Part shown: positions 15,001-48,860 of the stretch, piece after piece
Layout: each line of letters begins with the position of its first letter
Numbering within the stretch: the first letter of the stretch is position 1
Assembly (NCBI GenBank): GCA_051362555.1
Contig: CM120640.1
Span: 15,252,001 to 15,316,000 of the forward strand
Length of the DNA stretch: 64,000 nt
DNA from: Lingula anatina
Lineage: Eukaryota; Animalia; Brachiopoda
Reading direction: 5' to 3'
Position numbers and translations under genes: made by a program
Notes under the pieces: generated by a model
Seen by the model: only the letters and a program-made list of their open reading frames with translations
Databases searched by the model: none
Told to the model about the DNA's origin: nothing

Positions 15001-18000
15001 ACCTATCAGGCTCAAAGTGTTGGTGATATGACTGGCACATTAATATCATCAAACAAGCCCATAGCAGTATTCAGCGGCAATGTCAGAACAAACGTAGGTG
15101 CCGGAACGCGCTCTCGTGACCACTTGGTAGAACAGTTGACACCTGTTCCGTCTTGGGGTAAAAACTTCGGCACCGTGCCCACGCCAGGGCGTACAACTGG
15201 GGACGTATTCCGATTCGTGGCAGCTACAGATAACACGGTCGTCCAGGTGACGGGCCTCCCCAGCTTCACGCTTAACCGTGGCCAGTGGGAGGAGCAGGTT
15301 ATCCCCTCCACTACCTACGCCCACATCACTTCAAGCGAGCCGATCATGGTGGTGATGATTGTGTACAGTCAGTACAGTTCAAGTGAAGTGGCGGATCCCT
15401 CCATGATTCTTATCCCTCCCATGGAACAGTATGCTTTCGAGTATAACTTTGCCACGCCACAATACTCCGGCGGCGTGACAGGAGGAGACTACGTTCACTA
15501 TTTCTCACTGGTCGTTCGCGATGCTGACAAGGCCGGCCTATTGCTTGACGGAAATGCGCTCAGCAACGTTGTCAGCCTGAGCTGGAATAGTATACCGGGC
15601 ACTGAGTACGTGGGAGTATCCTTCCAGGTGTCAGGAGGTGCACACAATATCAGGCATTCGAGAGGAGACGTCAGCTTTATGGGCTTGTTGTATGGTACAG
15701 CAGACAGAGAGAGCTACGGCTTCCCTGTCGGTATGAGATTGGCCGTGTCCGAGGTAAGTGGCGAACACAGTTTTTTGTTCAATATCTTTGGCAGGAATTG
15801 AGTTTACAGGTAGTGTGTTGAGGTGATCGTAATTGCATGGGAATTGATGCGATGAGTAATTTTAATTTAATTTTTGTTTTGGTAAGATCGCACAAACCCT
15901 AAAACTATTTCTTAGGTAAAACTCTCTCTCCTATTCATAAATCGATCACATTTCAGCCGGCAACACAAGGACCGACTTCTGCCACCGCTGCCACTGCATC
16001 TCCATCAACCGCTTCGACTACCGGTGTTGTTACACCCACACCTACCACACCCACAACCACTACAACCTCAACTACCACAATTTCTACAAGTACAGCGACA
16101 GCACCGCCAACAACTTCATCACCCTCAGGTAAGAAAACGCTTTTAGCGCGAAGCCTTGCAAAAAATAATCACTGTAGTGTTATGTAAAAAATGTAAACTC
16201 GCCAAACGAATATTTTGGGGTCTAAATGTATAGATTCAATTAATAATTCATAGATTCAATGTTTGTTTGTTTGTATGCCTTTATATCCGTTTTTTCCTAT
16301 ATGTAACGCAAGGTTAATTGTGCTTTTGCCTTATAAAGGTGCTGTAGGAATCCAAGGACCGCCTGGCCCAGAAGGAGCAAAGGGATCAAAAGGCGATGTA
16401 GGTCCACAAGGTTTGGTGGGTCCCAAGGGAGAGAAAGGCATAAAGGGTGCTATGGGCCCGCAAGGACCTAAGGTAATTTATTGGGCTAACTTTTTGAACC
16501 AATTGTTTGTTGCAATAAAAATTTAAAAAATCATATAATGGTGTCTTTCGTCAGTGATGCCAATGCCTTCAAACAGAAATAAGGTACCAAGTGAAGTAAG
16601 TAGACCTTTTGTTAACAGTTGTAATTTTTGCCATTGCCTTACTCAGGGTTCTACTGGCCCCACTGGCAGTCAAGGTCCACAGGGTCAGAAAGGAGAACCA
16701 GGGGTTCAGGGTCTTAAGGGTGACCGAGGTGTCGAAGGCCCGGCTGGCTCAGCAGGTGCCACCGGGCCTCCTGGGCCTCAGGGTGGAGCTGGTCCAACTG
16801 GAGCCAAGGGAGATAAAGGAGACAAAGGTAATAAAATTTTGTATCATAAATTTTAAGTACCCTTTTTTGAAGGCTTTTGGAGTTTGGCTCCCCCTACTGT
16901 ACATTAATAATTAGTTTTCAGTTTTTGCCGATTTTTTACACTATTGGCTTTTCATATGCAAAACACCAAAAAGGGGTTAATGAAGTATTAGGAGGGTACA
17001 GGGTATATTGTGACCTATGTGGATGTAGTGATTTAAAAAAACCCACTTCATTATGAATGATCAATGACAATCTGTTAATTTTGATAATCAAGTTAATATT
17101 GTAAAGAATATCTAGAGTGACAAACACTTCCACTTCAATTATACAGACACCGCGAGAGTTATTTTAAACACATGTTAAATCTGTCGTCCCTCCAGGTAAC
17201 CCAGGTATCCAAGGTCCGTCAGGTCCCACTGGTGTTGCTGGGCAACAAGGACCGTCAGGAAATCGGGGACAGAAAGGTGACACCGGACTAATAGGTGACA
17301 CAGGAGTCAAGGGGGATAGAGGCTTACAGGGACCACCTGGTCCACCCGGCGACCAAGGTATAAGGCAAACATTTGAATATTATAATACTTGATAGATTAT
17401 ATTGTAGCTCGTGGGTTTTCCCCGGACATGGAGTTTTTTATGAGACACGTTTGTATTACAGCATTTTGTTCATATTTTTATTTTACTTATACTCATAAGC
17501 GTTCTGTGTTTTTTAAAATGTTGCTGAAAAAAGATGGGGTTGATAGATATGTTTTGCCCATGAAGAGCTTTTTTCTCAGACTTCCACTAATAAGTTTGCA
17601 AATATAGTAGTTTATGTCATTATTACCGTGGTAATGATGTGGATAATTCTGATTTTAGATATTGATGAGTGTCAGCTTGGCAACCATGGCTGCGCCCACA
17701 ACTGTGTGAATACATACGGCACCTACCATTGTACATGTAACACAGGGTTCAACCTACAGCCAGATACAAAATCTTGCGTTGGTAAGTAAATAAAATATTT
17801 ACACACAAGAAGCATTGTGATAATAAACATAATATGTGATAAAGCGTAAAAACAAACGGTGTTTGAAATAAATTTGTTGATTAAAAAAGAACATTTGCTA
17901 GTGGGATTATTGAAAATGTGACTGGGGGTAAAGCATCAAAATAATGTAGTTATAAAAGGGATTAAAAAAGTGCCTTAAAATCGTAACACATTTTTAGGTT

Positions 18001-19552
18001 ACATGACATTATCGTTTCCATTTATTTTTTCGCATATTCTTTTCTCAGACATTGACGAATGCAGTGGTCCAGGCAACGGTGGCTGCTCCAATACGTGTCT
18101 GAATAATGTGAATGGTGGTTATATGTGTACATGTCCCGCTGGTCTGGTCCTAAGTAATGATCAGCATACTTGTGAAGGTAAGTAGGACCACATTCTTTGA
18201 CTTTGGTATTTGTTATCATTATCCATTGTGGGAAGTACTAGTTATTTTTAAAAAATATTCTGTCGTGCAATTGATCATGGCGTTCACTACCTACACTGTG
18301 ATACATTTTACCCTAGTAATTCAGCAAAGTATTTTTCCAGTATTTTAATCTATTTTACATTATTTTATACACCATAGCCTAGTAATAAATTCAACCATAT
18401 GAAGGCATTATGTAATCAAATATTTTAATTGTTACTTAATGCTACCCATGTGTTACAGATCGCTCATATATCAATACTAATTTCATTCCAGATATAGATG
18501 AATGCAGCCGCAACCAAAGCACGTGTGATTCAAGCCAGATATGCTTGAATCTGATTGGCTCATACTCGTGTCTGGACGCTCTGAACATTACTTTTACCGA
18601 CCTGGGCAACCAGCTCTTGGCCTCAATGAACGGTAAGTCTTTTGATGAACTTAAATTTTTTATTGTAAACATTTCTTCTTTCTTTATTTTTTTATTCATA
18701 TTCTTATTACTTCTTTTTATAGGACATAAACGACGACATTTTAATGATATTATTTATTTATCTTTTATAATTTTTTCAGTATTCGTTTTATGGACGACCC
18801 ACTACTTTCAAAATCACAGTATTGAAAAGTTGTTTGGAAGTTTTTTAAATTCGCCATTCATTCAGTTTAAATTGTGTGGGGTTCTCATTGTGCACAGCGT
18901 AGTTCATTTGTTGCCTTTTCAATTCCATTGATAGCACTGAGGGCAGTCAATGTTACAGGAATTGTAGAAATGAAAAACAAATTGGAAGCTGCGACAGTTG
19001 GTGAGTTATATAGAATTATTTATTCCCTGTGCAATTATTTTTCTACAATCGCTTTAATGAAACTGATGGAAACACAAGATAACTCGTGAAAACCAATCCC
19101 CCACCCCTCACGAAAACTTAAGTGTGCATAATGATATTTTATGAGGTGTATGAAAATAATATTATATTCTTCTCTCAAATCCAAAATAGCTAAAAAACTC
19201 TTCTATTTTGCTAAATTGATATTTTTTCCACTTTTGATCTTGTAAACATTTTTTTTTTCAAAATTTTTCATTCAAATTTGTAGATCTTGAAACCGCCAAG
19301 ACCGGCTTCCAACAGCAGGTGGCCACGAATCCTCTCTGCTCGTCTCCGAGCCAGCTGCTCTCCACTACCGTCATGATCATCTTGATCGTCTGGCTTATCG
19401 TCCTGACTCTTATCATGCTTATCCTCGTGATCTGCCTCATGCTGAGGCGGAACAGCATGCGCAAAGAAGAAAAACTACGGAAAGACTATTATAGAGAGTC
19501 AATGTACAAAGCGAACTTTCAGTTCCCAACCATGTCCTCGCGCTATGCGTGA
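1..19552 (+). CDS. Gene A (5'-partial, >=3993 aa in window): multi FCGBP-N (IgGFc-binding-like) domain / DxDxDG linker / mucin / collagen / cbEGF type I transmembrane protein
   Basis: 31 GT-AG exons join in frame (11982 nt incl. stop): 1-58, 187-1517, 1678-1906, 2107-3395, 3599-3686, 3949-3987, 4107-5422, 5583-5670, 5838-5876, 6001-7316, 7483-7570, 7732-7770, 7903-9221, 9772-10128, 10440-10499, 10684-10752, 10913-10972, 11202-11289, 11505-12847, 13136-13223, 13852-13890, 14492-15753, 15957-16128, 16339-16472, 16647-16827, 17196-17357, 17659-17781, 18049-18177, 18492-18632, 18935-19000, 19284-19552. Seven ~430-aa repeats carry FCGBP N-terminal motifs ([13 protein letters not shown]...LG..YY, DLTGT.I.S..P.AVFSG, DHLVEQ.PP...WG, DP.M..IPP..QY, ESYGFP). 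Confidence 0.88.
187..1517 (+). CDS. Gene A exon: DxDxDG half-linker fused to FCGBP-N domain 1
   Basis: ORF 90..1541; acceptor ttctag|at at 186/187, donor cag|gtaata at 1517/1518. Confidence 0.88.
2107..3395 (+). CDS. Gene A exon: FCGBP-N domain 2
   Basis: ORF 2061..3428; tgtag|ct acceptor, ccg|gtgag donor. Confidence 0.88.
4107..9221 (+). repeat. Three near-identical tandem ~1.9-kb gene A modules (FCGBP-N domains 3, 4, 5 plus linker exons)
   Basis: Exons 4107-5422, 6001-7316 and 7903-9221 translate to nearly identical proteins (ORFs 4136, 5928, 7932); period 1894-1902 bp; introns 5671-5837 and 7571-7731 are still alignable. Confidence 0.92.
9772..10972 (+). CDS. Gene A Thr/Pro/Ser-rich mucin-like segment (4 exons)
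   Basis: Exons 9772-10128, 10440-10499, 10684-10752, 10913-10972, all phase 0-0 with GT-AG boundaries, translating to poly-Thr/Pro. Confidence 0.8.
11505..12847 (+). CDS. Gene A exon: DxDxDG half-linker fused to FCGBP-N domain 6
   Basis: ORF 11495..12889; gtag|at acceptor, act|gtacgt donor. Confidence 0.88.
14492..15753 (+). CDS. Gene A exon: FCGBP-N domain 7
   Basis: ORF 14434..15801; tttag|ct acceptor, gag|gtaagt donor. Confidence 0.88.
16339..17357 (+). CDS. Gene A collagen triple-helix domain (3 exons, 53 Gly-X-Y triplets)
   Basis: Exons 16339-16472 (15 triplets), 16647-16827 (20), 17196-17357 (18), no interruptions. Confidence 0.9.
17659..19552 (+). CDS. Gene A C-terminus: 2 full cbEGF, 1 four-Cys EGF-like unit, helical stalk, TM helix, cytoplasmic tail
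   Basis: DIDEC...C.N..G.Y.C motifs in exons 17659, 18049, 18492; [27 protein letters not shown] followed by RRNSMRK; TGA stop ends at 19552. Confidence 0.88.
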
Positions 19553-20087
19553 AGTTAGTTGAGGATATGTCTATGCAAACACTAGTCTGCTTTTTGCATC
19601 ACAACAAGTAGTGTAAAGCACTGGTCAGTTGAAAAAGGAAGTGAAACTTTTCACTGATATTTTTATATGAAATCTCGTTTCTTTGCCAATCAAGGCGACA
19701 CATACATGTATGTAGTAAAATCCCACATTATTATATACACGAGGGGTCAGTAGTTTATATGATAACATATTAATGTTACATTGTTATTTTATATATAACC
19801 AGAACGATATTTATTGTATGATGTGATACGAATTCATTCGAGGAAGTGGTCCTCGTGATATCAACATTCCAAGACCCTTCCGTATCCTTTTATAAGCGTG
19901 GTTGATCTTCCACTTGCTCTTCATTTACACAGTATTTCTATTAGATTGTGATTTATTGTCAGTCTAGGTTGTTAAATTGTAGCCATATTAAAGTTATGAC
20001 AAGAAAATGACAGTTTAGGGATGTCATTGTTAAAGCTACATGTTTTTGATTAGATGATGTTATTCTGTTGTACGAACGTTGAACAGC

Positions 20088-20093
20088 AATAAA
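20088..20093 (+). promoter_or_regulatory. Candidate polyadenylation signal of gene A
   Basis: AATAAA ~535 nt after the stop, followed by a T/GT-rich stretch. Confidence 0.4.
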
Positions 20094-21079
20094 CTCATTT
20101 ACAATTTTTTCTAGCGTGGTTTATACTGTTTCTCCCCAAATAACACTCTTATTGACCCAATCACTGGTAATCGTAATTATAAATGATCATATTGAGTCTA
20201 TCTTAGTTTCTAAGACTATAATATTTATTCATTGATGAGAAACTAACCTTACTAGTTTTAGCTGTTTAAGACAATGGTTTGGATCTTTTAAAGGCAAACA
20301 GGACAATTTTTAACTATAATTTACTTCTATGTAGACTTTGAAACGTTCCTTGATAAAGAGATTAAAATTGAGCTGAATTATAAAACATCTCAGTTATTAC
20401 ATGTTTTATATGTTTATTTTCTTGAAATAAATTTCGATTCTCACAGATTATTAAAGAATGACTTTGCCGGTGAGATGGTCTCTAAAAATTATAAAAAGTA
20501 GGTTATGATATGGCGTATAAAGTATACTTGTAGACTATTGTTCCTGAGACAATTTTTTTTGTCAAGTAAGCTGATCTCGGTGCTCATGATATCCTCTTCA
20601 GAAACTTTGTATAACATAAGACATCCATTCCAACACCTGCAACATGCATGACTCATGATATTTAAGAGAAAGTCAGTTGATACTGCTATTTGTAAAGTAC
20701 AATCGTATCTATATACTAACCATTAACATTTGTCATGCTATGAGAAATTCGTTAGCACATCGATATATCGTCGCTTCCTTATCACATCCATGTCGTGGCA
20801 TTTTTAAGTCACTATCATTACAGTGCTTTGGAAAATGATTTTTGTCCCAAATTTTCATGATTCAAAAAATGAAAGAAAAAAATGCATGGAATGAAAAAAT
20901 GGAGATTGTTTCATAGTGCTCTCTCCACCGGAGAGACCTCGCTCTCGTGGGGCTGTTGCCGACGGTCGGTTCAGCGTCCTACGACGAGTTGCTGGCCAGA
21001 GGGAGATTCCTGGGTGGAGAGCGACACGGGTGAGGTGATGTTCTTGGCACAAGTGAAATGAGTCGTAGTAATGTAGTGA

Positions 21080-23908
21080 TCACTTTCGTCTGTTTCTCAT
21101 CCAAGTGTTCCTGTGTGTTATGTTAGAATGTCTTCTCCTGTTGCGTTTCCCATACTTGCCAGTGTACGTGAATTCGGCTGCGTTCCCGAGTCCGACTACG
21201 ACGCAAGCACCCAGACCGCTGCGATGGAAGTTCAGGACCCCTACCTCTTCCCAGCGTTTGGTTTCCATGTCATACTTTTCTACTGAACTCATTGTGTTTT
21301 GTCCTGAAAGCAAATAGATATTCACTTTATATAAGGAAACAATGAGAACAATAATAACATAGTGCCTTACTTATGTGATGAATTAATACATCTTAAATAA
21401 ATCAATAAACTGATTACCTTAAATAAAAGAAAAAGAAAATAAAAACATCCTAGTGATGTGCTTACAAAAATACAGCAGTATATTCAGTATGTATTACATA
21501 ATGAAATGACAAGTGATTTATAATAACATAGTGCCTTACTTATGTGATGAATTAATACATCTTAAATAAATCAATAAACTGATTACCTTAAATAAAAGAA
21601 AAAGAAAATAAAAACATCCTAGTGATGTGCTTACAAAAATACAGCAGTATATTCAGTATGTATTACATAATGAAATGACAAGTGATTTATACAGGTCACC
21701 CGTCTGACTACGCAACGAAACTGGCTGAGAATTCATCGTGTAATAAACTTGCTCATGGAGACCCTACTGTTCATGTCAAAAACTTGCCATTGAATCCGCC
21801 AATGACGTAAACGCTTCCCTCCAAGACCACTGTTGCAAAGTTGCTCCTCGCCTCCTTCATGGTAGAAATAAGGGTCCACTTGTGCGTCCTTGGGTCATAT
21901 TTCTCACCTGAGGTCGTGAACGTCATAGACAAATGAAAATAGGTGTACCACGCTAGACTAAAACAACGTTAGACTAAAATTCCACTGGAAAAATGCTGCC
22001 TATAACTGCTTATAATAGCCTACTATTAAGTTTGTTAATTTATTTGGTTTTATCCGTACAAATATCTATCAAAGCCAACCACGCACCATAATTTTTCTTA
22101 AAATGCAATAAAATAAATAAATAATGTAAAAAGCCGAATATGAATAAACCTTACACTTTAAAATGAATAAAACGCCACCACACTTACCGCACTTCCTCCT
22201 TGTCTGCGAGACGTCGTCATAGCCGCCGATGGCGACTAACATGTTGTTAACAGCAGCGAGTCCGGTTCCGCTACGGGGATGGTTCATGGTCGGTAAAAGT
22301 GACCACTGGTCGGTGACAGGGTCGTACCTCTCCGCAGAATTCAAACAAGATTCTCCGTTAAACCCACCTGCCACGTACAACTTCCCTTGAACGACAGTTT
22401 TAGAGTGAGATGCTTAAAGAAAAGTTCTGAAGAAAATCTTTATACGTGCAATTCTATTTTGGGTCATCTTTTTCGAGTATTTGGTATTACGTGAGAAGAT
22501 ATATTAAAGTACACAAGTATTACACTTAAATTCTACGAAGGTAAATAGTCCTACCATTAAGCTCTGCCGCGCCTCCGTCACTGCGCTCACAAAGCATGTC
22601 TGAAACGAACGACCAGCGCTCCGTCAGCAGATCATACTTCTCTACGGTCCGCAGCCTACCCACGGGATCGGGTGTTCCCGGCTCGTAACCGCCACATGCG
22701 TAAATGCAGTCGCTCACTACACCAGCTATCACATAGCACCGTTTTGTATACATGGGGACTTTTTCGCTCCACGTCTTACTTGCCGGATCGAAACATCTCA
22801 TTGTGTTATAGTAACGTTTCCCGTTATAACCCCCCATGACGTAGATTTTGTTGTGGAGCGTAACGACTGCATGGTATGCCCTTGGATAGTCACGGTCTTC
22901 GAGTTTAATGTGGGAAAACCAACAGTCCGCTCGGACATCATACGCTTCAAACTGAGCTGTGGGACTGCCTTCACTCCAACCTCCTATCGCAAAAACCAAA
23001 CTTGATGGAACGCGAGGACGAAACATGCATTTCAAGCGAGTGGTCGGTAGAGTGTGGGACAGCGGCTTTTCGTATTCCTTCACATAGGCCTCCGCTTGAT
23101 GATAAATAGCAGAATCCAAAAGGTTTACCAGAGCTGGATGTTGACGGACCAGTGGCATTCTTATGATTCGATGAATAAGATCTGGATCACATAGTCCAAA
23201 GCGAACGTTTAAGAGAAGTTTTTCTCCTAATTTTCCCTTGTTCTGGTCACTTAGATCTTGGTGACTTATCCAAGAAACAATAGCGTTGAAAACTTCTTGT
23301 TCTGACTTGACGTTCAATCTATCGTCGCTAATTATTTCTTCAAAACATTCTAAGTCAAGCCCCATCATTTCTTCATGTTTACAAACCTCTGTGAAATTAT
23401 TCAAAATGTATCTGAAAACTGTTTCTGCTAAATTCACAAAATTGAAGAGTTTTGCAAAGTTCCAAATTCCCACACAATTTTCTGGCTGCAAACTGGATAC
23501 GGCATACCTACAGCATTTAGTCACAAGACCGTCCATCTGAAAACGATCAGCTATCGGCAGCAGATGTTCCACTTCATTTTCCGATATTTTTGCATCTGAT
23601 GTGTACGCAAACTCTAATATCTTTTCCATTATTGCACAGGTCACATCTGGGATATTCACCACCGCAGATTTCGTCTCTTTCATTCCGTTCAGAAAAACTG
23701 CTTGGAAGTATGGACTTGCGGCGGCAAGGACACATCTGTGTGCGCACAAATGTCCGTCTGCCAATGTTAATTCTGCATCGCATAACGATTGCTCTGTTCG
23801 AAGATAATTCAGATTTTGGTGAAAATCTGTAAAAATATTTGCGTAATTCATTGAGATGATCAATATGCTGAAATGTACATCTTCTGTTGATTCAATTCTA
23901 ATAAACAT
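21080..23908 (-). CDS. KLHL10: BTB-BACK-Kelch protein, KLHL10-like (~631 aa, 4 exons)
   Basis: Exons 23908-22555, 22385-22188, 21907-21788, 21303-21080 join in frame (1896 nt). BTB (AHRCVLAAASPYFQAVF), BACK (ENCVGIW...SDDRLNVKSE) and six Kelch repeats; AIGGWSEGSPT..EAYD.RAD.W and PRAYH match the KLHL10 subfamily from recall; orthology not tested. Confidence 0.8.
21351..21691. repeat. Perfect two-copy 169-bp tandem repeat in the last Kelch intron
   Basis: Unit starting ataataacatagtgccttac at 21351 recurs at 21520. Confidence 0.9.
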
Positions 23909-25150
23909 AGAAGTCGTTACAACGTAAATCTTGACGTACTCGTGCTACGTAGACGAAACCTCATGACGTCATTTGTCAAGGAGACGTCGTTTGTCATGTT
24001 ACTGCGGGACTGGTAATATTTTATTCTACTTTTGCTGTGCAAACAAATATTATCACATATATTGGCATATTTTCACATTAAATATCTGATACAGACGTAT
24101 TTGATGGCTAGTAAAGTTTAGTCGGATATCTTAAAATGTGCAGACGTCGTGTTTTAAATTGTTACTCGTTTCTCGTGCGGGCCCACTTAAGAAACAAGGC
24201 TGTTGAATTCTTATTCATTTGAATTTGAATAAACGTCTTTTTCATATAGTAATATCTCATACATTTTTAATTTCATAACTGGATCAAATTCAGTCCTTTA
24301 GGCCTAGTCGCTTTCAATTTCATTTGAATGCTAATAAGCTTCAATATTTTGACGTGTTCAGAAGTGAATATTCATGCTTGAGTGCTCAACGCGTGCATTC
24401 TTGCTCACTAAGAGCCCCTTGAAAAGACAAATAAAACTAAAGCGGCAACGCCATTGTTATTTACCTCGAATGGAATTCTATGCTTACATACGGGGACTTC
24501 GGCGACCCACGGCACAGTAAAGCGTCTCTGTATGTGGATGTCAGGTGAAAAAGCTGGAAGGCTGTCCAGGATAGAAGAGAACCGAAGGGGAAAAGTACAG
24601 TTCTACATGGCACGTTGATAATTACTTCGCGAACAGCTCTCTGATTATCAAGGTAAATAATGTTTTGCATACGACAGTTTGCAAGAATGGCCTGTCAGAT
24701 TGATCGTCGTCAACTTCGAGCCTTTAGCAGGTTCAGTTGCTTGTCTTGGTCGATATTGACGATGTCAGCCCTTCACGTTTGTAGTATAAAACATTCTAGT
24801 ATATTTCATTTCAAAATTCAGGTTTTTGCATACAAAATACAAATATATAAAAGCTCGGTCTTCACCTGAGCGTGCTAGGTCTATTGAGTTATGTACTGCG
24901 CCCTTTAAAGTGTAGCCTATTGTTAACATTATTGAAAGCTTTTTATTGTTAACTTTCACCAAGACGTATAATGTTCCCTTTTGTCCTAACCAATCGATAT
25001 TTGGAGAAAATGTTAACTTATGACTGAAACGCGAACCGGCATTCATAAAATTCACACTTTATCAAAAAGGTTCTATAATATAGATGCGAATCTTTAAAAC
25101 GTGGTAACAAAGGAATTTTCTTTAGGGTCTTTTCTTCATACTCGAACTTA

Positions 25151-25408
25151 CGCCCCATACTCATAGACGCCATCGGTCTACGTGGATCGGCCCAACTCTG
25201 CAGGGACTCTCGCCGACTGCAATCAGCGTAACTGAATGACACGCCTCCTCCTGGCGTTATGTAGAATACAGAGAAGCTGGTGATTGTAGGAGTATGGAGG
25301 AGGAGGAGGCGTGTAATTCAGTAGGCCTAAAGCTGTTTGCACTTAGTGAGAGCCCCTGCAGAGTTGGGTCGATCCACATTGACCAATGGTGTGTATTGGA
25401 ATGGGGTC
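25151..25408. mobile_element. Palindromic MITE, Tourist/PIF-Harbinger-like
   Basis: Long imperfect inverted repeats (ggtctacgtggatcggcccaactctgcagggactctc / gagagcccctgcagagttgggtcgatccacattgacc; tgaatgacacgcctcctcct / aggaggaggcgtgtaattca), flanked by TTA at 25148-25150 and 25409-25411. Confidence 0.7.
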
Positions 25409-26280
25409 TTAGGCTATATTTAAATGTGACACTTTGTTTATGTGTCATATGAAATTATTAGAGTGTAAAGAAAACTCCAACGGATGAGAACTGCAGGGTT
25501 GTCCTTCGTAAGTGAAAAACATCCGATTCTCCGTAGAAATTTACCTCAGCACGCTTGATTTCATCCGATCATTATATAACAGCTTGTTGCAAGCATGTTT
25601 GTTCAACCTTAGATATTGATACTATGTCTGAGGTAATTAATAAAGAAAATCACAATTGCTTACGAAATCGTTAAAATAGAAAGTACCAATCCAAGTTTGT
25701 TACATAAACAACACCGATTTCCGTTAATATTTTATTGTCTCTTGATTAAGTGTCGTGCTGACTGTTATATTGGTTGTAGGCCTATGCGAAGTGGACCTTT
25801 GGAACCAGCCAGTCGAGGTCATATGCAGTGGTTGCAACAGGTCAATTATCATTGTCGTGATTTGAAGCTATTAATTTCTTTTTAGGCTTACGATGCACAT
25901 ATGCTTTCTATATAGAAAACACTCGTGATAACTTCAGCAAACGCTTCCTTCATTGCTAAGGTATTCCTACTATCCAAATGTCGTTGAGACAATTACGAAC
26001 TCTAAGCCCCTACGAACTCTAACTCTAAGCATTCTCAATTCTAAATTCCTGATTTTTACGTTACAAATGAAATTTTCCAATCTCCATTTTCATTACGAGA
26101 CTGGCTAAAAAATTACAAACTTTGAACTCACTTTTTTAAAATTGTAATTTTGCCAATGGCTTTGGATATGGTATACTTAGCATGCCTCGGTAAGTTATGG
26201 TAAAGTGTTGAAATTCCAGGAAAATTATAAATGTGCTCTGTAAAGGTCTTATCGTTATTGTTTAACTTGAACCATTTCAG

Positions 26281-29200
26281 ATGGTGCGCTGCAGTTGTCA
26301 TGTGTTTGTAGCGTTGGTTGTAACTCTGGTGTTCATTCCTGGTGTTGCAGCTCAGACAGGTATATTTTACATTTACTTCGTAAGCAGTGTTTTTTTTTTT
26401 TTTTTTTTTTCAAAACGAGTTATTTAATTTCTCATACTGTTGTTGGAGGCAGGGCTTTTATCAACCACGCCGGTCATAAGGGCAGAAAGTAGAATGTGTG
26501 TGTGTGTGATGGGGGGGGGGGGGGGGGGGGGGGGGAAGGGGGGGAGGGGGGGAGGGGGGCGCAAAGGTAATCGCTCGGTCCTCTTCTCCCTCCACAGTGG
26601 CTGATGTTTTTTTTTAAAGGTTTTCTCCCTCACTTAATATTTGCATCTTACTCATCTGTATTTCATTTTTAGAAGAAATCAATTTTTCGTATTATCCCCC
26701 ACTCTAAAAAACTTGACGTGACCAGAAGAATAAGAGAAACATGAAATTAAACTCTACTCGTCCGTTATGCAATACATAATTATTCTAACCACACCTTATC
26801 CAACATGGAGGACAATGATAAAAAGTAAGCAATAAACATTGCTGACAACTAAACTACAGGGTTACCACTTAATATGGAATATTTTTTATCATTGTTATTT
26901 TTTAGTGCTGATTAAATTTTTTTTGGCTTGAGTCATTAAAAAAGTATGTCACTGAGTGATAATAACATCCAGTCTTCTGTTGTGAGAAATTTTGGTCAAT
27001 AATATTAAATCTGACATAAGATGCCATTCAAAAGAAAGGAACACCCCCAGAAAACCATATCAACAGTTTGATGTCAGTATAAACTTTAAGATAAGATATT
27101 AAAGAAAATGATAGCCTCCGGACAGTGATATGTTACACAGTCAAAGAACTCACTACAGTAAATCATGAAAAGTCAGTAATTGCGGGTATGACCTCCAGCA
27201 GCCGCTTGCAGCGCCCTCATCCTACATGGCATATCCTGTGACACGTTTTTTAGAGTTTGGGTGGGGATATCATTCCACGCAGTGATATTTGCCTGTCGCA
27301 GTTCATCACTATTTACCGGCCGAGGACCATAGCTATTAATTCTGTGAGTTACTTCCGCCCACAGATTTTCAATTGGGTTCATATCTGGAGAGTTTGCAGG
27401 CCAGGGCAGTTGCTGAACCCATTGGTTTTGAAGAAAAACAGTGATTCTGCGGCCTCGATGTGGGGTTGCGCAGTCGTCTTGGTACACAAAGTTGTTCCTG
27501 AAGATGAATCTTACCAATCGAAGCATTGTTTGCTGTAGATCGTCTCTGTAGGAATCCTGGATGAGGTTGCCTCCTAGAAAAACCAACTGGTTCTGGGCAC
27601 CGACATGAAATGCTCCCCAAACAGAGACGTTACCATCCCCTGGTTGCACCCTAGGCAGTACACAATCATTGTTTTATGCCCCTCGTACACGTCGGTGGAC
27701 ACGGGTTCGATGATCAACCCTAAAAAATCCATATCTGGCCTTATCACTGAAAACAACATGATTCCAGTGTTTTGGCTGCAAACGCACGTGGTCCCCAGCC
27801 CTTTGCAGACGTCGCTGTATATGACCTGCTGTTAACAGTGGTCTCCCTACTGGCCTTCGTGCAAAATAACCGGCTTGCAGAAATCTCTTGTTCACGTGGG
27901 ACCTTGAAACGGGCGTTTGAATGACATTCTGCCTCTCTTTTCTGAGGACACTGGTTGTCTTTGTACGACCAGCACGGCGTCCACTAAGGAGAAGGCGATC
28001 CTGTCTTCTTGGTGTGATACGCAGACACCCTGGTCGAGGTATTGGAGTAGGTGCCCCTGTAGCAGCATTTCTTTAGAGGACTTCACAAACGGTTCCTGAT
28101 AAATGTTGAATTACCTGGCAATGGCTGTCCGTTTCTGGCCATTTTCTCTGAGAGCAAGAATCCTATAGTAAGCTGCGTTGCCTTGTTGTCGTACCATATC
28201 TTCACTAAGGTACCTGTCAAGTTTCAGAGCGATCCCCTTGTTGCTTCTCTAAACACGCTCCAAAGATTGACAAAACCCATGCGTTTTTATACAAGGGCAG
28301 AAATTGCCGAAAAGACCACCCCTCATATTTCTGACCATAGAACATGCAACTGCATGCATCAATTGTTTCGAGAGTTGTGTGGTAATTAGGTAACACACCT
28401 GGCTACACATGGAGTGACACCTCAGCTTTGGATTTAAAGTAGTTAGAGAGAAATTAAATATTTTGTAGAAAATTTATTCGCCAAAAAATAATATTCCATA
28501 TTAAGTGGTAACCCTGTATGTCAGGAAAATCACAGTATTTGTTCAGACAAAATGTACTCTCGTCCTTTTTTCAACGTCGCGCCTTTTGATTCCTTCTCTA
28601 GTGGCTCAGTTAACTTGTAAAAACAATACATTTTATTAGCTTCACTCACTCCAAAATTTTATTATCCGCAGGGGACAACGCTGGTCGACAGTTTGTCTTA
28701 GCGTACATGGAGAACAAGGTAGAAGTTCCCACAAATGAGCCTCTGGAACTACACGTAGCTACTCAAAAATCGAACGTGCGGGTAACAGTATCAGCTCCCA
28801 AATTCACAGGGACTACTGTGAATAGCAGTGTATACATGCAGAGTGAGGATGTGCGTATCATCACTATCCCAAGTTCCATGAGGATGGAAGGATCGAGAAT
28901 AGAAAACAAAGCCATCCTGGTTGAAGCCACTGATGATGTCATAGTGTACGGAATTAACAGAGAGCCTTTTTCAAACGATGGGTTTCTGGCTCTTCCTGTC
29001 AGTGCTCTGGGACGTGATTATTACGTCACAACGTACAGCCCGCCCACTATCATGGCTGAGATTGGAGTTGTTGCGGTCGAAGACAGCACGACACTGACAA
29101 TATCATTACCAACACACACTGATGGCCTCTCTGTTGCTTTCAATGGGCAGACGTACGCTAAAGGACAGGAAATACAGACAACAATCTCTGCATTCCAAAC

Positions 29201-32200
29201 CCTCCAGCTTCAAAGTGTCTCCGATTTGACGGGCACGCGAATACGATCGAATAAAAACGTAGCCGTTTTCTGTGGAAACGTCCGTACAAGCGTCGGGGTA
29301 GGGGACTCTCGGGACCATTTGGTGGAGCAGATCCCCCCTGTCACGTCGTGGGGCTACACATTTGCAGTGGTGCCAGTGCCGGGAAGAACGCTCATCGGTG
29401 ACTTGATCCAGATAATCTCAAGGGATAGCAACACGCGTGTTGAGATACGGGAGGCAGGGGCTACGATGCGCGTTCTTGATTTCAGTAGAGCTGGCGAAAG
29501 CCAGAATATTACAACATCCCCAAACGGCTACATATCCATTACCTCTACCGGTGGCCCTATATTAGTCACTCAGATAATTTACAGCCAGTTGTCAATGAGC
29601 GAGCTATCCGACCCGGCCATGATAATTGTCCCGCCAATGCAACAGTACAAAACCAGTTATGCTTTTGCAACGCCAACGGTAGCCGATAGAGGATACACCA
29701 ACTACGTCTTAATCGCTGTCCATAAAAGTGCCAAGGACGCCATTTTGCATAATAACGAGTGGCTCCAGCAATCTAACGTTGTTCTTTGGGAAAGCATTCC
29801 TGGAACTGAGTTAGTAGGAGCCAGTTTCAACATATCGTCTGGCCGACACTTTCTGTGGCATTTCACGTACACTACCCCGTTCATGCTGATACTGTACGGA
29901 GCCGCAGACAAGGAGTCCTACGCATTCCCTGCTGGTATGAAAACCGGAGCAGTTCAGCAGCAACAAGTAAGAGAAAACCAGCGAAATTTTATCTAAGCAC
30001 ATAAGATTATTTCAGCATTTCATGACCTTTATACACATACTTAGGCCTACGTGTCTCTTGTTTGTTCTTTACATACACAATCTTCACATTTGGAAAGTTC
30101 CATCATAAATGCAGTCCAAAGCTTATATTAAAATTTACCAAGCAGGGTTTGCTTTTGGTCTTTGAATATAGGTTTCTTCTGATCTTTTTCAGACATGCGT
30201 GGCACCACCAATGGTACCGGGGGATTCGGTGGATAACGATTGTGATGGACAGATGAATGAAGAGAAGTGTGACAAAATGGGTAAAATTTTCTATATATAG
30301 ATCTTAGCAGATACACATACACTGTGTATATTGTTAATGTCTCATGTTGAGTAAAGATAATATTTGGGTTCGGCTATAAGATTTTTGGGTTATAACTGTA
30401 AGACAAATGTATGAATTTGCTTATGAAACATTATGATTTAACTCTTTCTTTCGCGATATGCTTTATTCTTGCACATGTGAATTTCTGTGATATATTTTAA
30501 TAGATAACGATGGTGACGGGAGAGTGGACGAAGATTGTTCTGGTACGTATCCAGAGCTTTGCTCATAAATAAACCGAGAATATCTACTCCGAAATTTAAG
30601 TATTCAATATTTCTTTATATAATCTTTTTACAGAGACTGAAACAACTTAGTTTTAGTGCATTAACTTATCAATAGTTGTTGTGTATTCAACTTGTGTTAC
30701 AGTTGCACTGGATTCAAAGGGTTCGGACTTTCTGGTTATGTATCTTAACAACGTCGTACAGGAATTCACGGACCCTTACGACCTGGAGTTATTCATAGCG
30801 ACAAGTTCCAACCAGCCGGTCCAGGTGGACATCACTACACCCAGATACGCTTTTCCTTACGTGAAAAGTTCCGAAACCGTCAACCCGAACGAAGTCATCA
30901 GATTTCCCATTTCCCCGGAACTCCGAATGGAAGGAACAGACGTTTCCACCAAAGCAATCCAAGTTACAGCGACAGGGACAGTGGCTGTGTACGGCGTGAA
31001 TAAAAAGAAGTTTTCAGCGGACGCTTTCTTGGCCTTTCCAACCGACACATTAGGGACTGAGTATTACACTGTGAGTTATGCCCCTCCTACAATTGCAAGT
31101 GAGTTTGGTATTGTGGGCGTGCAAGATGGAACCTCTGTGACAATAGAACTGCCTTCTTCATCCCGATCTTCAATCAGCCTAAATCTTGGTGGTCGCACGT
31201 ACAACAACGGTGACAGATTCAGTCTTATTCTGAATAGATATGACACTCTGCATATTCAGAATTCGGCTGACCTTACCGGAACCCGTATTACGTCCTCTCA
31301 GAAGATAGCCGTGTTCAGTGGGAACGTCAGAACCAACATAGGCATTGGCACGTCTCGGGATCACCTTTCTGAGCAGATCCCTCCCGTTTCGGCGTGGGGA
31401 AAAGAGTTTGCAACGGTCCCCATTCCCCGTAGAACGACTGGAGATTTCTTCCGCATCATTGCCGCAAGAGACAACACTAAAATATTGCTGAGGTACATTG
31501 AAAGTGGCGGGGTCACCATCCAAAGGGAATTCATCGACATTCAGACCGCCGGGGATTTCGTAGAAAGAGTGGTGCCATCCAATGATTATTTATATCTTAT
31601 TGCCAACGAGCCGGTCCTGATGGTCCAGTTTGTTTACAGTCAAATATCTGACACTGAGACAGCAGACCCATCTATGATAATCGTCCCTCCCATGGAACAG
31701 TATGCCTTCCAGTATAGTTTCAGCACCCCTATATATTCTGGGGGAGTGGTTGGTGGGGATTACACACACTATGTGCTAATGGTGGCGCCTGCGGATCAAA
31801 TTGATGGGATTCTGCTCGATAGTGAAAGACTAAGTATCAGTAAACCTGGACTTGTATGGACACCCATAGCCGACACCACGTACTCGGGGACGTATTTTAA
31901 TGTTTCAAGCGGTGTGCATCACATTCGCCATAGCTCAAGCGGTGTCGCCATGATGGGAATTTTGTATGGCAAAGCAGACAGAGAGAGCTACGGTTTACCA
32001 GTGGGGATGCAGTGTGAAAACATTGCTTTTGTAAGTATGTCTGTGATAAAATTACTTCTTGAACTCAAGGTAAAAGAACAATCTAATTATGTTTTTCAAA
32101 CAAAGATAAAAGATAATTTAACCGTTTTCTTCTTCTACCCAACATTCATTCCTCCGAATCATTCTTCCCGTGCAATAGGTATATTTTACGTTATATATGA

Positions 32201-35200
32201 TAATTATTGTGCCCATATGGATAATCACAATGTTGTTTCCTTTCAGAGTTGCAACGCTCCACACATGGTAAATGGGGATGGACATGACAACGACTGTGAT
32301 GGGAGAGTGGATGAGGAATATTGCGATGGAATTGGTAAAATTTGACGTTTGCTTATCTTCATATCAGTTTTTTTGTTTACATATATTTCATTAACATTTA
32401 AGTAAGAGAAATGTTGCCAATCTTAATCATTCTGCTTCTCTGTGGTTAGATTTCAAGAGTATTTTATTGGTAGAATTTAAGATGTTTTATTGGCCTCATT
32501 ACAGATAATGATAACGACGGAAAAAAGGACGAAGACTGTACAGGTAATGAGTTCAAAGAAGCAATTATAAGACAAGCTGGATATATCTCACTACAAGCGT
32601 AACATTTAAGGAGCACTTTGGGTGTGCTTTAAGGCTTATAAAGCGAAAACCTAGGAAGTGTGTGGGAGCCTATGGCTCCCCTCACGGACTTCAAGATTTG
32701 GGATGTTTATGCCTTATTATTTAGCTTTTTAGAAGTGTAACGAATGGTAACTCTTTCTCTCAACACTGTTTCTTTGTGATAGTCAGCATATTACTGGATG
32801 CACTGTTGTACCCACAAAGCATTTGCCATCAGTAAGATTTTTTCATTGCGTTTTGTCACTTCTAAGCAACCTTGCGTTCACTATAATGATTATTGAAGTC
32901 TTATAAAGCTGAACTTTTTATTTCATCCAGAAACTTTGGACTCGAGTGGGAGAGAATTTGTCATAATGTTTATGGAAAACTCTGTTGAAGACCCAGTGAA
33001 TAGCCCCCTAGAGATTTACATCGCAAACACATATCCAACCGTTACCGCAACAGTCAACGTGACAACGCCATTATTTAGCCCTGCAATGGACGAAAGCGTC
33101 ACCGTCAGCCCTACTGAAATGAAAAGGTTGACTATGGCCAGGACCATTCAGACGACTGGAACAGGTATAGCTAACACGGCAATTCTCGTACAAGCTACCC
33201 AAGACGTTAATGTCTACACGGTCAACAAGGAGAAATATTCAACTGACGGCTACCTCGCCTTTCCAACAGACGTTTTGGGAACGAAATACTTTGCAGTGTG
33301 TTATTATTCCACAGGAAGCAGCAACAATTGCCAGTTGGGTATTGCAGCGCTGTCAGTTACTGTGGATGTTCAGATCGAAATGCCGAGAGGCCGCAGTGTT
33401 CCGTTAACTGTGACGTATAACGGGTACACATACAGAAGCGGAGACGTGATAAATCTGCGATTGACCAGATACCAAACGTTCCAGGGACAATTCAGTGGTG
33501 ATCTGACTGGTGCCGAGATTACCGCGACCCAGCCCATTGCAGTGTTCAGTGGGAATATTAGAACCACTGTGGGGAATGAATCTAGCTACCGTGACCATCT
33601 GGTTGAACAGATGCCTCCTGTTGAAACGTGGGGACAAGAGTTCTTCGCTGTTCCATCTCCAAGGCAAACCAATGGGGACATATTTCGAATAGTAGCAAGT
33701 GACCCGGCAACCCGCATTTCAATATCAGGATTTGGATTGACCCAAGAAGAGGTTACGATAGGGACCAGTGACTTTGTGGAAAGATCCTTCCCTTCTGGTA
33801 CATTTGCTCATATTTCAAGTTCTAAGCCAGTCATGGTGGTGCAGTTCACCAGGGGTCAAGCTGTTACCAGTGATGTAGGAGATCCGGCAATGGTTCTCGT
33901 ACCGCCTGTCAAACAATGGCAGTCAGAATACACGGTCACGTCTCCGCAGCAAGCCGGTACTGGTGCAGCATACACCAATTACGTCATGGTAGTCGCAGGA
34001 AATGCAGATAAGGACAACATAAAAATCGATGGCCAGACTTTGGCATCTCTAAGTTCTGGTCTGTCTGGCTCCATAAAGCGCCGTTCTCTTAGTTCTCCTG
34101 TGCAGTGGACTGAAATTCCAGGAACTACGTACGCAGGGACTGTCTTCCAGCTACCTGCTAATGCGCAGAGAGTCACCCATTCTGGAGACTTCATGGCTAT
34201 GGTGTACAGTGCAAGTGACAAAGAGAGCGTTGCCATGGCAGCTGGAACACGGCTGAAGACTTTGATACAACCAAGTAAGTCTTTCCATTAAGTATTGCGA
34301 TTTATTTAGTTTATTTGCTTTCTAAATTACTGATTGTGACAATATTGGTATCACCAAGTATTATATTCCACACTTCTTTCTCTTTACCTTATTACTGTTA
34401 TTCATGCTAATGAGTGGTTTTATATTTGGTATTCTCTTGAACTGAGATCAGAGATTTCATTTAGTAAAAATATTTTTTTCTTTCATTGTGGTTTTGTGTA
34501 ATGATGATGAAAAAGGAAATTGTTTCGAAAATCATGCTTCATAGGTAGAACACACTTTCGTAACGATTCCATTTTAATAATAATATCTTCAATCGTCCAT
34601 TTATCTAGTTAACGGAAATTGGGGAGCATGGGGAGAATGGGCCCCTTGTTCTGCGTCCTGCGATGGAGGGAGTTACTCAAGAAGACGTGCGTGTAATGAC
34701 CCCGCCCCTAGCAATGGCGGGGGAAATTGTGTTGGCAGCGATACTCACGTCCAAGTTTGTAACGATGTTCCGTGCACAACCAGTAAGTGGTTATTAAGAT
34801 TTTGACTGATTTTGCTTAATGACTATCGTGATCTCTTTTCGTGGTATTAGTGCTCCTGAATTGTTTTGTGATGGAGGGTGATATGGAACGTTCAATGCAT
34901 TAAGAGTACGGTGGGCTGGGCGTTGTTCACATGTAGTGTTTATGGAGTACATTTGTCGTTTGTAGCGATCGTTGGACCTCCTGGACCGCAAGGACCACCT
35001 GGACCTAAAGGTGAAAAAGGTGCCCAGGGCCCTGCAGGACCCCCAGGGCCAAAAGGACAACGCGGGCAGCAGGGACCGGAAGGGCCAACAGTACGTTATA
35101 GTTTATTGTGTGCCCATGGGGCGCCACAGCTGAAATGCATTACTTTTAGGCACGCAATAATCATTAGGCCATTATATACCAGAAATTTAATTTCCCTGAA

Positions 35201-37378
35201 CATGTTAACGCTTTTCCCTGAACCATCAAGGTATAGAAAGTAGCATTTCCAAGTCTTATTCCCCGCATTATTTCAACAGGGTCCTACTGGTGCTCAGGGC
35301 CCGGCAGGTATCCAAGGCCCTCAAGGAGTATCTGGGGTTCCAGGGGACACAGGTCCCAAAGGTGACAAAGGTGTGAGAGGCCCAGACGGTCCAGTTGGTC
35401 TTACCGGACCCACGGGTCCACAAGGCATAACTGGACCTACAGGATCTACAGGAGCCAAAGGGGACAAGGGCGAGCAGGGAGTGAAGGGGTCGAAAGGCGA
35501 CAGAGGTGCAACTGGTATTCAGGGCATTATAGGTCCAACGGGCGCCAAAGGCGACCAAGGTGTTCAAGGACTCCAAGGATTAAAGGGCGATATGGGAGTA
35601 GCGGGGCCCATGGGACCTATGGGTCCCCCAGGAAATAAGGGTTAGTGCGTATTTGAATGTGTAAATATTAATAAAAAAGTTTTTCGGCCCTTTTTTATAA
35701 CCATAGTTTTAATAAGTTTCAAACATAATGATATCAATTTTTTTCAATAATCATTTGAAAATGGTCATTATTAAGATAATAAAAATGTGTAATGTGCACC
35801 ACAGCGGAAATCCTATCTTACAATTTTTATTTAATTTTTCAGAGGTGGACGAATGCCAGACTAATAAGGGAGGTTGCAGTCACACCTGTATGAACTCCTA
35901 CCTGTCCTATCGCTGTGTATGTGACGCCGGGTATCAGCTGAACGAAGACAAGCATTCTTGTGCCGGTGAGGGAAAGCCTGTTGTCAATCACATTTAGTTG
36001 TTTCGTCAATATTGAACCGGTGTATATAACATTAATGAAATACTTGTTCGGACTCGAGCATATTTAAGTTTCAAGTGTGCTATTTTATTATAGATTAAAA
36101 AAAGGGTCATGCCAAAATAGCGTCTGCTTGAACTTTTTAAGGCTGCTATCAAAAAAAGAAAGTGCATTTTCCATTTACATAAATTTACATGGATTTGAAT
36201 ATTACCAGCGCCTCCTTTTTTCTACCACCTGATGTTGTCGTTATTGATGTTTTGTCAATCATTTTAGACGTGGACGAGTGTGGCAATGACAATGGCGGCT
36301 GTGACCAGTTGTGTTACGACGCAGTAGGCACCTACGTCTGCGCGTGCCGGACTGGGTTCAGACTGAGCCCCGACAGACACAGCTGTGAAGGTACTATTAC
36401 TAAATAATGTATTATTAAGAAAGGGGGTTGAAAGCAAATAATAATAACAGATCAATAATAATAAGAAAAAATAGAAATCAAAATAAATGAATATAAAGTT
36501 TAAAACATTTATGTCAGCCATGGCTGGATCTGTATCGTTGAATGTATTACATAGTGCGGGTGCTGTATTGAAAAGCTGTGTCCGTAAGTGATTTCAAGAA
36601 CTTGTTGTATTTTATGTGTTCTATCTCAGATGTTGATGAGTGTGCTGTCAATAATGGCGGGTGTAATTCAACACAAAAATGCGTCAACACTTTGGGGAGC
36701 CGAAGTTGCGTGATGACCATTTCGTCGTCTGTTGACTCCTTGGCACAATCGCTGCAGCTGAAGGTCACAGGTAAGTAATCATTCGAAATATCTCATTCTC
36801 CACTGTCTACAAAATCATACTTATTCATGAGTTTCAACATACCAAGCAGCCTCTCCCCATAAAAATGATTTGATGGACAGTCTTGATTCCATGTCAGGTA
36901 AATATAGAATAGCAATCTGTTATTCTTTTCCAGTGTAGGGCTGTTGTCGCAAACTGCGACAACAGCCCTACACTGGAAAAGAATATTAAATCGCCCCAAA
37001 GGGTCCTCAGGTGTTGTATAACAGAAACAAAAGGAAAATCTTTTCTCTGTAGTAGTACACTGATTTTGTACTCTTGTTCCAGAATTAACGACACTCTCGG
37101 AAACCATGTCTCAGGTTGTGAAGGACCAGACGGCCGCTCAATCGTCTGCTCAGACCGGCAACTGTGGCTATGATGCTACACTAGTGAATGGTTACCTCAT
37201 CATCGGCATTATTATATGGCTGATTGTGGTCACCTTAGTTCTACTGGGACTAGTTATATATCTGATTTACAAGAGGGGAAGAGACAAGAAATGGGAGAAA
37301 ACGCAGGAAAAACTCTCAAGAGAATATTCATATTCCAGAAATTCGCCTTCGATGTTTTCTGCAGTGAAAGCATATTAA
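26281..37378 (+). CDS. Gene B (complete, ~1880 aa): signal peptide, 3 FCGBP-N domains, 2 DxDxDG linkers, TSP1, collagen, 3 EGF-like units, TM, short tail
   Basis: Exons 26281-26359 ([26 protein letters not shown], signal-peptide-like), 28672-29966, 30193-30280, 30504-30542, 30703-32030, 32247-32334, 32505-32543, 32931-34274, 34609-34782, 34966-35090, 35280-35640, 35843-35965, 36268-36390, 36630-36770, 37083-37378; total 5643 nt, phases compatible. Confidence 0.87.
26509..26559 (+). repeat. Poly-G / G-tract cluster (G-quadruplex-prone) in gene B intron 1
   Basis: Long G homopolymer followed by further G runs separated by A residues. Confidence 0.7.
26857..28516 (-). mobile_element. Tc1/mariner (DD34E) DNA transposon, full length with decayed transposase
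   Basis: 27-bp perfect TIRs cagggttaccacttaatatggaatatt; TA target duplication at 26855-26856 and 28517-28518; minus-strand transposase fragments (about 28197-27173) [28 protein letters not shown] with 34 residues between the second D and E; broken across frames. Confidence 0.93.
34609..34782 (+). CDS. Gene B thrombospondin type-1 (TSP1) repeat exon, missed by the ORF track
   Basis: [56 protein letters not shown]: WxxWxxW, CS.SC and RxR motifs; phase 1-1. Confidence 0.92.
34966..35640 (+). CDS. Gene B collagen triple-helix domain (2 exons, 53 Gly-X-Y triplets)
   Basis: Exon 34966-35090 (13 triplets) plus exon 35280-35640 (40 triplets), uninterrupted. Confidence 0.9.
36921..36985. repeat. 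Perfect 31-bp-arm hairpin in the last intron of gene B
   Basis: tattcttttccagtgtagggctgttgtcgca - aac - tgcgacaacagccctacactggaaaagaata. Confidence 0.92.
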
Positions 37379-40300: not shown

Positions 40301-40390
40301 CCAGAAAAAATATTAATATGGCCCATTGATTTTGGTATTACATATATGTAAATGACACACTGTTATATTTTCCAGGTATATTAGCAAAAA

Positions 40391-48647: not shown

Positions 48648-48860
48648 TGGACCCCCGAGGTAAGTTGGCCCTCCCATCAATATATGACAAAGTAACTATG
48701 GGGTAAAAGAATTGATCACATCATTTTGTAAAGTGACCGTACTTAGTATCCAATAGTGCTAAGAAATCGTTGCCAGTGAGTCCAAATGAAATAATTAAGC
48801 ATCTTAAAGTAACTTAATTAAAGAGACTTGATGGGGGGCCAACAAACCCCACGGCTCCAC
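48648..48860. mobile_element. MITE-like element at the duplication junction
   Basis: Imperfect inverted repeats tggacccccgaggtaagttggccctcccatcaa / ttgatggggggccaacaaaccccacggctcca. Confidence 0.55.

What the first reader, a model, noticed from the sequence alone, without database searches (positions are those of the whole stretch)
16339..35640. Both paralogs have exactly 53 uninterrupted Gly-X-Y triplets despite divergent sequence and different exon splits
Seen: gene A has 15+20+18 = 53 triplets in three exons; gene B has 13+40 = 53 triplets in two exons; X/Y residues differ widely and both helices run straight into the first EGF. Established: chains of heterotrimeric collagens keep matched helix lengths. 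Inference: A and B may be alpha chains of one heterotrimer, mixing long (>=7-domain) and short (3-domain) heads, or the rod length is under strict selection. Caveat: the stalk between EGF3 and the juxtamembrane Cys is 60 aa in A and 47 aa in B.
Basis: partly seen in the sequence, partly recalled or inferred. Interest (0 to 1): 0.78.

Follow-up and report, generated by a model that had tools for sequence, protein, structure and literature searches.

The report
Membrane collagens with fixed-length stalk
Two neighbouring lamp-shell genes encode predicted membrane-anchored collagens whose stalks both have 53 repeats; related genes in other animals have 51, so the match likely reflects a family-wide stiff spacer of about 45 nm that would hold mucus-type heads off the cell, and is not evidence that the two chains pair.

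Summary
The count is right: A has 15+20+18 and B 13+40 uninterrupted Gly-X-Y triplets, both running into EGF1; stalks are 60 and 47 aa. B is Lingula anatina LOC106163541. Both genes are spliced in RNA. The heterotrimer inference is not supported. The rods are homologous one triplet out of step (34/104 X/Y identities against 24/106 in step), the collagen exons total 477 and 486 nt, and 5 of 8 compared segments have equal length anyway. Charge-pair scores: AAA 19, AAB 18, ABB 17, BBB 16; an impossible cross-species trimer scores 17. The path from rod to membrane differs by 15 residues. So this is an apparently undescribed family of predicted type I membrane collagens carrying FCGBP_N heads on a 51-53 triplet rod, the mirror image of class A scavenger receptors. 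Four rods from at most three lineages is a small sample; trimer composition and ligand are untested.

The parts
1..15753 (+). Gene A head: 7 IgGFc_binding (FCGBP_N) exons with Cys/Asp-rich linkers and Ser/Thr-rich spacers; 5' end outside the window
   Evidence: exon model; Pfam PF17517 on the last domain; alignment; domain cut-out
15957..16128 (+). Gene A Ser/Thr-rich linker exon before the rod
   Evidence: RNA joint
16339..16472 (+). Gene A collagen exon 1, 15 triplets
   Evidence: RNA joints
16647..16827 (+). Gene A collagen exon 2, 20 triplets
17196..17357 (+). Gene A collagen exon 3, 18 triplets
17659..18632 (+). Gene A three EGF exons (third has four Cys only, then stalk)
18935..19552 (+). 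Gene A stalk, single Cys, TM helix and cytoplasmic tail (exons 18935-19000, 19284-19552)
26281..26359 (+). Gene B first coding exon, signal-peptide-like hydrophobic leader (judged by eye); 5' exon joins from about 24652
28672..34274 (+). Gene B head: 3 IgGFc_binding domains with two Cys/Asp-rich linkers
34609..34782 (+). Gene B TSP1 exon
   Evidence: Pfam PF00090; RNA joints
34966..35090 (+). Gene B collagen exon 1: one non-Gly triplet, then 13 triplets
35280..35640 (+). Gene B collagen exon 2, 40 triplets
35843..36770 (+). Gene B three EGF exons (third has four Cys only, then stalk)
37083..37378 (+). Gene B stalk, single Cys, TM helix and cytoplasmic tail
48848..50747 (+). B': partial tandem copy of B's 3' end; starts inside collagen exon 2, lacks one triplet, one Gly replaced by Pro; no upstream exons found

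Best explanation
A and B are sister copies in a family of predicted type I membrane collagens (leader, FCGBP_N heads, collagen rod, EGF domains, one membrane helix) whose rod has 51 to 53 triplets in all four genes read, so 53 = 53 likely comes from shared descent plus selection on rod length, and each chain would most likely form its own homotrimer. Inferred mechanism: three chains align at the membrane end (TM helix, EGF block, and in B a heptad stalk), the rod zips from the EGF side, Lys-Gly-Asp/Glu pairs stabilise it in place of Y-position proline (5 to 6 of 53), and the stiff rod of about 45 nm presents three clustered head arrays above the EGF block to bind mucus or surface glycans with high avidity. 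Shown: architecture, splicing, counts, homology. Inferred: topology, trimer, folding direction, selection, ligand.
For: Homologous loci L017 and L018 (2 of 49 loci) give clean gene models (13 and 20 exons, no stops, one GC donor) with 51 triplets each (L017 one Gly-to-Ser; L018 one 2-residue break). Their head domains fall with all A and B domains in one group of 26 of 42 rows (SH-aLRT 98, quick tree); L018's last exon aligns with those of A and B; all four end the EGF block with a four-Cys EGF. Their rods share no detectable X/Y similarity with A, B or each other (5 of 6 pairs p 0.34 to 0.93; only A-B passes) and split differently over exons (12+17+22; 10+19+22), yet span 153 to 159 aa, while heads number 1, 2, 3, at least 7 and last-Cys-to-TM distance is 28, 29, 59, 73 aa. 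A and B are each other's best match after the rod (125 to 159 bits against 54 to 104). Homotrimer charge pairs exceed shuffles for A (19 against 8.8, p=0.001) and B (16 against 6.5, p=0.001). A junctions are seen in 7 of 8 runs, B junctions with 3 or more reads in 2 of 8.
Against: Only four rods, from at most three lineages, and a shared ancestor with few indels could give the same picture. L017 and L018 models rest on splice signals alone (no RNA). L017's head sits on a long branch (1.81) in an unfinished tree. L017's rod shows no homotrimer charge excess (10 against 12.0, p=0.77). A's stalk has no heptad signal (p=0.60; B p=0.009), and L017 and L018 have no room for a long stalk, so the trimer-nucleating part is unknown. 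A and B are expressed about equally in run X6, and B was never seen without A. The head's function is unknown (PMC11796319, passages) and its model matches no solved fold, so the ligand is a guess from FCGBP's mucus association.
Confidence: 0.6

Rival explanations
1. A and B are chains of one preferred heterotrimer (AAB or ABB) mixing long and short heads, and keep 53 triplets to match each other.
For: Adjacent genes, equal counts; AAB (18) and ABB (17) are the best mixed registers and peak at no shift when B is slid by -6 to +6 triplets; triplet alignments place indels in opposite directions so that the total is equal; similar TM and equal Cys-to-Trp (18) and tail (52) lengths; about equal junction counts in run X6 (A 6-14, B 6-10).
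Against: AAA scores 19 and BBB 16; both chains are net positive (+4, +5) with no complementarity; the impossible B-B-L017 scores 17; rod-to-TM path 190 against 175 aa; no B junction listed in X1, X3, X9 where A junctions are (low counts); unequal chains also form heterotrimers (PMC8971810); homologues without any known partner keep 51.
Confidence: 0.15
2. Equal length is only inheritance: collagen rods change length slowly and nothing selects for about 45 nm.
For: P(net zero) 0.14 to 0.47 under simple indel walks; 5 of 8 compared A/B segments are equal in length; intron to intron the modules differ (477 against 486 nt). Otolin rods also stay within 69-74 repeats among vertebrates (PMC2939893, passages).
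Against: X/Y residues are saturated and introns rearranged between lineages while length stays within 2 triplets; class A scavenger receptor paralogues range from about 75 to 250 collagen residues (PMC3567963, passages); the relaxed copy B' has already lost a triplet at about 89% DNA identity.
Confidence: 0.2
3. They are structural shell-matrix collagens, like the EGF-collagens found in the Lingula shell, shed from the mantle surface.
For: Lingula has 17 EGF-plus-collagen genes, 4 in the shell proteome, and two mantle-specific FCGBP-like genes (PMC4595640 passages and supplement).
Against: B's accession and the IgGFc domain have 0 occurrences in the 2026 shell-proteome supplement; TM anchor and tail; short rod; the 2015 gene numbers could not be tied to A or B.
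Confidence: 0.1

Closest known systems
Class A scavenger receptors (SR-AI, MARCO, SCARA3-5)
   Same: Single-pass membrane protein with a helical stalk, one collagen rod and a distal head; described as homotrimers (PMC3567963, passages).
   Different: They are type II; here the leader is N-terminal and the TM C-terminal. Heads are FCGBP_N arrays, not SRCR or lectin; EGF domains lie between rod and membrane; rod length is narrow here and wide among their paralogues.
MACIT collagens XIII/XVII/XXIII/XXV, colmedins, ectodysplasin
   Same: Membrane-anchored collagen.
   Different: All described as type II (PMC7848082, PMC4678570, passages); MACITs have several interrupted helices, here one rod.
Lingula EGF-collagens (Luo et al. 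2015, PMC4595640)
   Same: Collagen followed by calcium-binding-type EGF domains, tandem genes; A and B probably count among the 17 (not checked).
   Different: The passages seen describe shell-matrix fibrillar collagens; no FCGBP_N head or TM anchor is mentioned in them (Fig. 6b not visible).
FCGBP and invertebrate FCGBP_N proteins (Lang et al. 2016, PMC4948705)
   Same: FCGBP_N (PF17517) domain, extracellular.
   Different: No VWD-C8-TIL units; tandem FCGBP_N arrays on a collagen rod. Of 218 FCGBP_N proteins retrieved only B itself has a collagen run (many are fragments).
Streptococcal Scl1/Scl2 (recalled, no call)
   Same: N-terminal head, collagen stalk rich in charged pairs, C-terminal surface anchor.
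   Different: Bacterial, no EGF, no homology tested; analogy only.

Membership tests
Heterotrimeric collagen pair (A+B) | Matched helix length | tested here: met
   53 and 53, though homologous positions are one triplet out of step
Heterotrimeric collagen pair (A+B) | Inter-chain charge pairs favour a mixed trimer over homotrimers | tested here: not met
   AAA 19, AAB 18, ABB 17, BBB 16, others 10-13; cross-species control 17; crude count, not an energy
Heterotrimeric collagen pair (A+B) | Expression in the same cells at matched level | tested here: inconclusive
   bulk RNA only: about equal in X6, both low in X7, A above B in X1, X2, X3, X8, X9, neither in X4
Heterotrimeric collagen pair (A+B) | Physical co-assembly | not testable with these tools
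   needs co-expression and pull-down
Class A scavenger receptors | Type II topology | tested here: not met
   N-terminal hydrophobic leader and one C-terminal TM followed by basic residues
Class A scavenger receptors | Collagenous domain | tested here: met
   PF01391
Class A scavenger receptors | Coiled coil between TM and collagen | tested here: inconclusive
   heptad signal in B (p=0.009), none in A (p=0.60); short in L017 and L018
Class A scavenger receptors | Binding of polyanions or modified lipoproteins | not testable with these tools
   rods of A and B are net positive; no binding data
MACIT collagens | Type II topology with several interrupted helices | tested here: not met
   single uninterrupted rod, C-terminal TM
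FCGBP | FCGBP_N domain | tested here: met
   PF17517, E 1e-57 to 1e-66 on the 4 exons scanned
FCGBP | Multiple VWD-C8-TIL units | tested here: not met
   none in B's Pfam list or in the visible part of A
Lingula EGF-collagens | Collagen plus EGF domains | tested here: met
Lingula EGF-collagens | Presence in the shell proteome | tested here: inconclusive
   B absent from the 2026 supplement; A has no accession to search; 2015 gene numbers not mappable

The most novel reading that the evidence does not exclude
An undescribed animal family of type I membrane collagens in which the rod is a molecular ruler of about 45 nm, held at 51 to 53 triplets across distant lineages while its sequence, introns, head number and stalk all turn over; in Lingula the two sister chains can also co-assemble (AAB or ABB) to tune how many FCGBP_N heads a trimer carries.
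Probability: 0.25. Interest if true: 0.72.

Novelty: new variant of a known kind. Interest (0 to 1): 0.47.

Why it matters
The membrane collagens described in the reviews read here are all type II; a type I family with FCGBP_N heads would be a reversed design of the scavenger-receptor plan. A rod whose length outlasts its sequence points to a fixed distance at the cell surface that can be tested by changing triplet number. The short homologue L017 (one head, 791 aa) is a simple construct for finding what the FCGBP_N domain binds, which is open even for human FCGBP. The exact 53 = 53 match by itself is ordinary.

Tried and rejected
No whole genome was held, so other Lingula paralogues could not be counted. 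Gene A's protein was not among hits of 784-2235 aa or 3326-5000 aa, nor; lengths between and above were not covered by the word search. A search with B's rod-to-tail part was swamped by collagens and EGF arrays: none of the 120 listed had both. Longest runs in 117 of those 120 have median 59, 7 within 51-53; that set is biased by the query and was not used as a null. ESM Atlas gave nothing usable or generic EGF clusters under 0.9. No RNA holder was listed by index; raw runs were laid instead. The head model (pLDDT 84.7, all-beta) has no fold match in PDB (best TM 0.17) and no sequence match; the wider VIA search never ran. The last-exon model is low confidence (pLDDT 63.7) and shows only helices. 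The careful tree did not finish; the quick tree was used. Two B' rows had wrong coordinates, were dropped and redone. 47 of 49 metagenome loci show no collagen run; only 14 of the 26 loci checked for length had 2 kb or more downstream, so their blank says little. Earlier findings of this scan: none returned. Rejected: alternative splice sites changing the counts (RNA joints and RefSeq agree), and B' as a third functional chain (no upstream exons).
Full report
What is in the window. Two genes on the + strand share one plan: arrays of IgGFc_binding (FCGBP_N, PF17517) domains, a collagen rod, three EGF domains, a stalk with one Cys, one membrane helix and a short tail. A is at least 3993 aa with 7 visible heads; B is 1887 aa with 3 heads and a TSP1 domain. 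B matches Lingula anatina LOC106163541 (P0001) at 99.2%, so the window is from this brachiopod or a very close form. Topology is inferred as type I from a hydrophobic leader (by eye) and one C-terminal helix followed by basic residues.

The observation. A has 15+20+18 and B 13+40 triplets, uninterrupted, each followed at once by EGF1; stalks are 60 and 47 aa. RNA reads confirm all 4 junctions around A's rod exons and 2 of 3 for B; RefSeq supplies the third.

How the equality arises. In step, X/Y identity is 24 of 106, near shuffles (p=0.057). With A triplet i on B triplet i-1 it is 34 of 104, reached by 0 of 5000 shuffles; over A triplets 10-50 it is 27 against 15 of 82. From the first acceptor to the last donor the modules are 477 and 486 nt: B's exon opens with a non-Gly triplet where A has its first Gly triplet, and B has an extra triplet near the end. 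The first eight triplets align about equally in either register (6 against 5 of 16), and cheaper gaps give more indels that line up the two phase-0 introns, so the number of events is uncertain. Under simple walks P(net zero) is 0.14 to 0.47, and 5 of 8 compared segments of A and B are equal in length (segments chosen by me). Exact equality between sister genes is therefore weak evidence of anything.

Heterotrimer test. Counting axial Lys/Arg-Asp/Glu pairs (geometry as used in peptide design; PMC7824840, passages; exact offsets recalled) gave AAA 19, AAB 18, ABB 17, BBB 16, BAA 13, BBA 12, ABA 11, BAB 10. AAB and ABB do exceed shuffles and peak at no shift, which counts for compatibility, but both chains are self-complementary and the cross-species B-B-L017 scores 17. 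Rod end to the TM Trp is 190 aa in A and 175 in B. In 8 RNA runs (6 to 30% of each read), A junctions appear in 7; B junctions have 3 or more reads in X6 and X7, 1-2 in X2 and X8, none listed in X1, X3, X4, X9. X6 has both about equally. Tissues are unknown and counts low. Matched length is not required for mixing: adiponectin/CTRP9 is unequal (PMC8971810, passages).

Relatives. Of 218 FCGBP_N proteins, only B has a collagen run; many are single-exon fragments. A metagenome scan gave 49 loci; 2 of 49, L017 and L018, carry collagen and EGF exons after the head. They are intron-bearing genes of unnamed animals, with no blastn match to each other or to the other loci. L017: leader, 1 head, 51 triplets (12+17+22, one Gly replaced by Ser), 3 EGF, TM; 791 aa. 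L018: 2 heads, 51 triplets (10+19+22, one 2-residue break), a longer EGF block, TM; 1472 aa modelled. All their heads group with those of A and B (26 of 42 rows, SH-aLRT 98, quick tree; the group also holds Lingula proteins without collagen, P0197 and P0060). Rod spans are 159, 159, 153 and 155 aa, or 44-45 nm at 0.286 nm per residue (recalled value). Only the A-B pair of the 6 pairs has detectable X/Y similarity, while heads, EGF block (109-211 aa) and stalk (28-73 aa) vary freely. Rod length is thus the best-kept dimension of the family.

How it likely works. Three chains would gather at the membrane end and zip the helix outward from the EGF side, as collagens with C-terminal trimer domains do (established knowledge, recalled). 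B's stalk has a heptad signal (9 of 14 a/d positions hydrophobic, p=0.009); A's does not. Y-position Pro is scarce in A and B (6 and 5 of 53) and Lys-Gly-Asp/Glu motifs are frequent (8 and 7), which fits charge-pair stabilisation. The single juxtamembrane Cys in A and B has no partner within the chain and may link chains; L017 and L018 lack an equivalent before the TM. The rod would hold three head arrays clustered and clear of the membrane. FCGBP is a mucus protein and its N domain has no known role (PMC4948705 and PMC11796319, passages); the head folds confidently as an all-beta unit with no solved match. I commit to an avid cell-surface binder of mucus or microbial glycans, about 0.4 for the ligand class, 0.6 for homotrimers as the main form, 0.7 for selection on length.

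Compared with what is known. It works like a class A scavenger receptor in mirror image but fails membership on topology and head (PMC3567963, passages). MACITs, colmedins and ectodysplasin are type II (PMC7848082, PMC4678570, passages). Lingula EGF-collagens are known as a group (PMC4595640, passages of text and supplement; PMC13425148, passages and supplement search). Five searches (listings only) showed no paper on an FCGBP_N-collagen-EGF-TM protein; the text of Lang 2016 has no occurrence of 'collagen'. Its supplementary figure of 974 architectures and Fig. 6b of Luo 2015 were not seen and may show such proteins; subscription papers are not covered.

Verdict. Observation confirmed; heterotrimer unsupported but not excluded; a conserved 51-53 triplet rod in an apparently undescribed type I collagen family is the real result, resting on four genes. 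New variant of a known kind; interest 0.47.

Noticed in passing
window 35409-48000 against 48848-64000: Tandem segmental duplication (72-89% DNA identity) covering the 3' end of B and a cytochrome P450-like gene (P450 call by eye from the haem motif, no Pfam run). The copy B' keeps intact EGF and TM exons (21 of 683 nt differ) but starts inside the rod.
   Followed up: partly
window 21070-23930, - strand: BTB-kelch-like gene between A and B (by eye from ORFs), weakly transcribed.
   Followed up: no
window 27173-28072, - strand: Broken Tc1/mariner-type transposase remnant in B's intron (by eye); reads on both strands with many differences come from other copies.
   Followed up: no
window 4107-5422 and 6001-7316: Two head exons of A are 97.8% identical in DNA: recent array expansion or homogenisation.
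   Followed up: partly
window 16032-16063: Reads of runs X1 and X3 show a 33-base in-frame duplication in A's Thr-rich linker: the linker varies in length between individuals; no indel was listed in the rods, at low depth.
   Followed up: no
window about 34075, B third head: An inserted loop with a Lys-Arg-Arg site, a possible convertase cut that could release B's heads.
   Followed up: no
window 18492-18632, 36630-36770; L017:6603-6710; L018:12377-12595: The last EGF has only four Cys in all four genes, a family signature.
   Followed up: partly
L018:5187-5393: GC-AG intron needed for the open frame.
   Followed up: no
L017:1100-2400: A spliced gene with an SH3-like stretch lies upstream (by eye).
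   Followed up: no
P0197, P0060-P0062: Other Lingula proteins carry heads of the same group with a C-terminal hydrophobic helix but no collagen, so the rod is optional in the wider family.
   Followed up: partly
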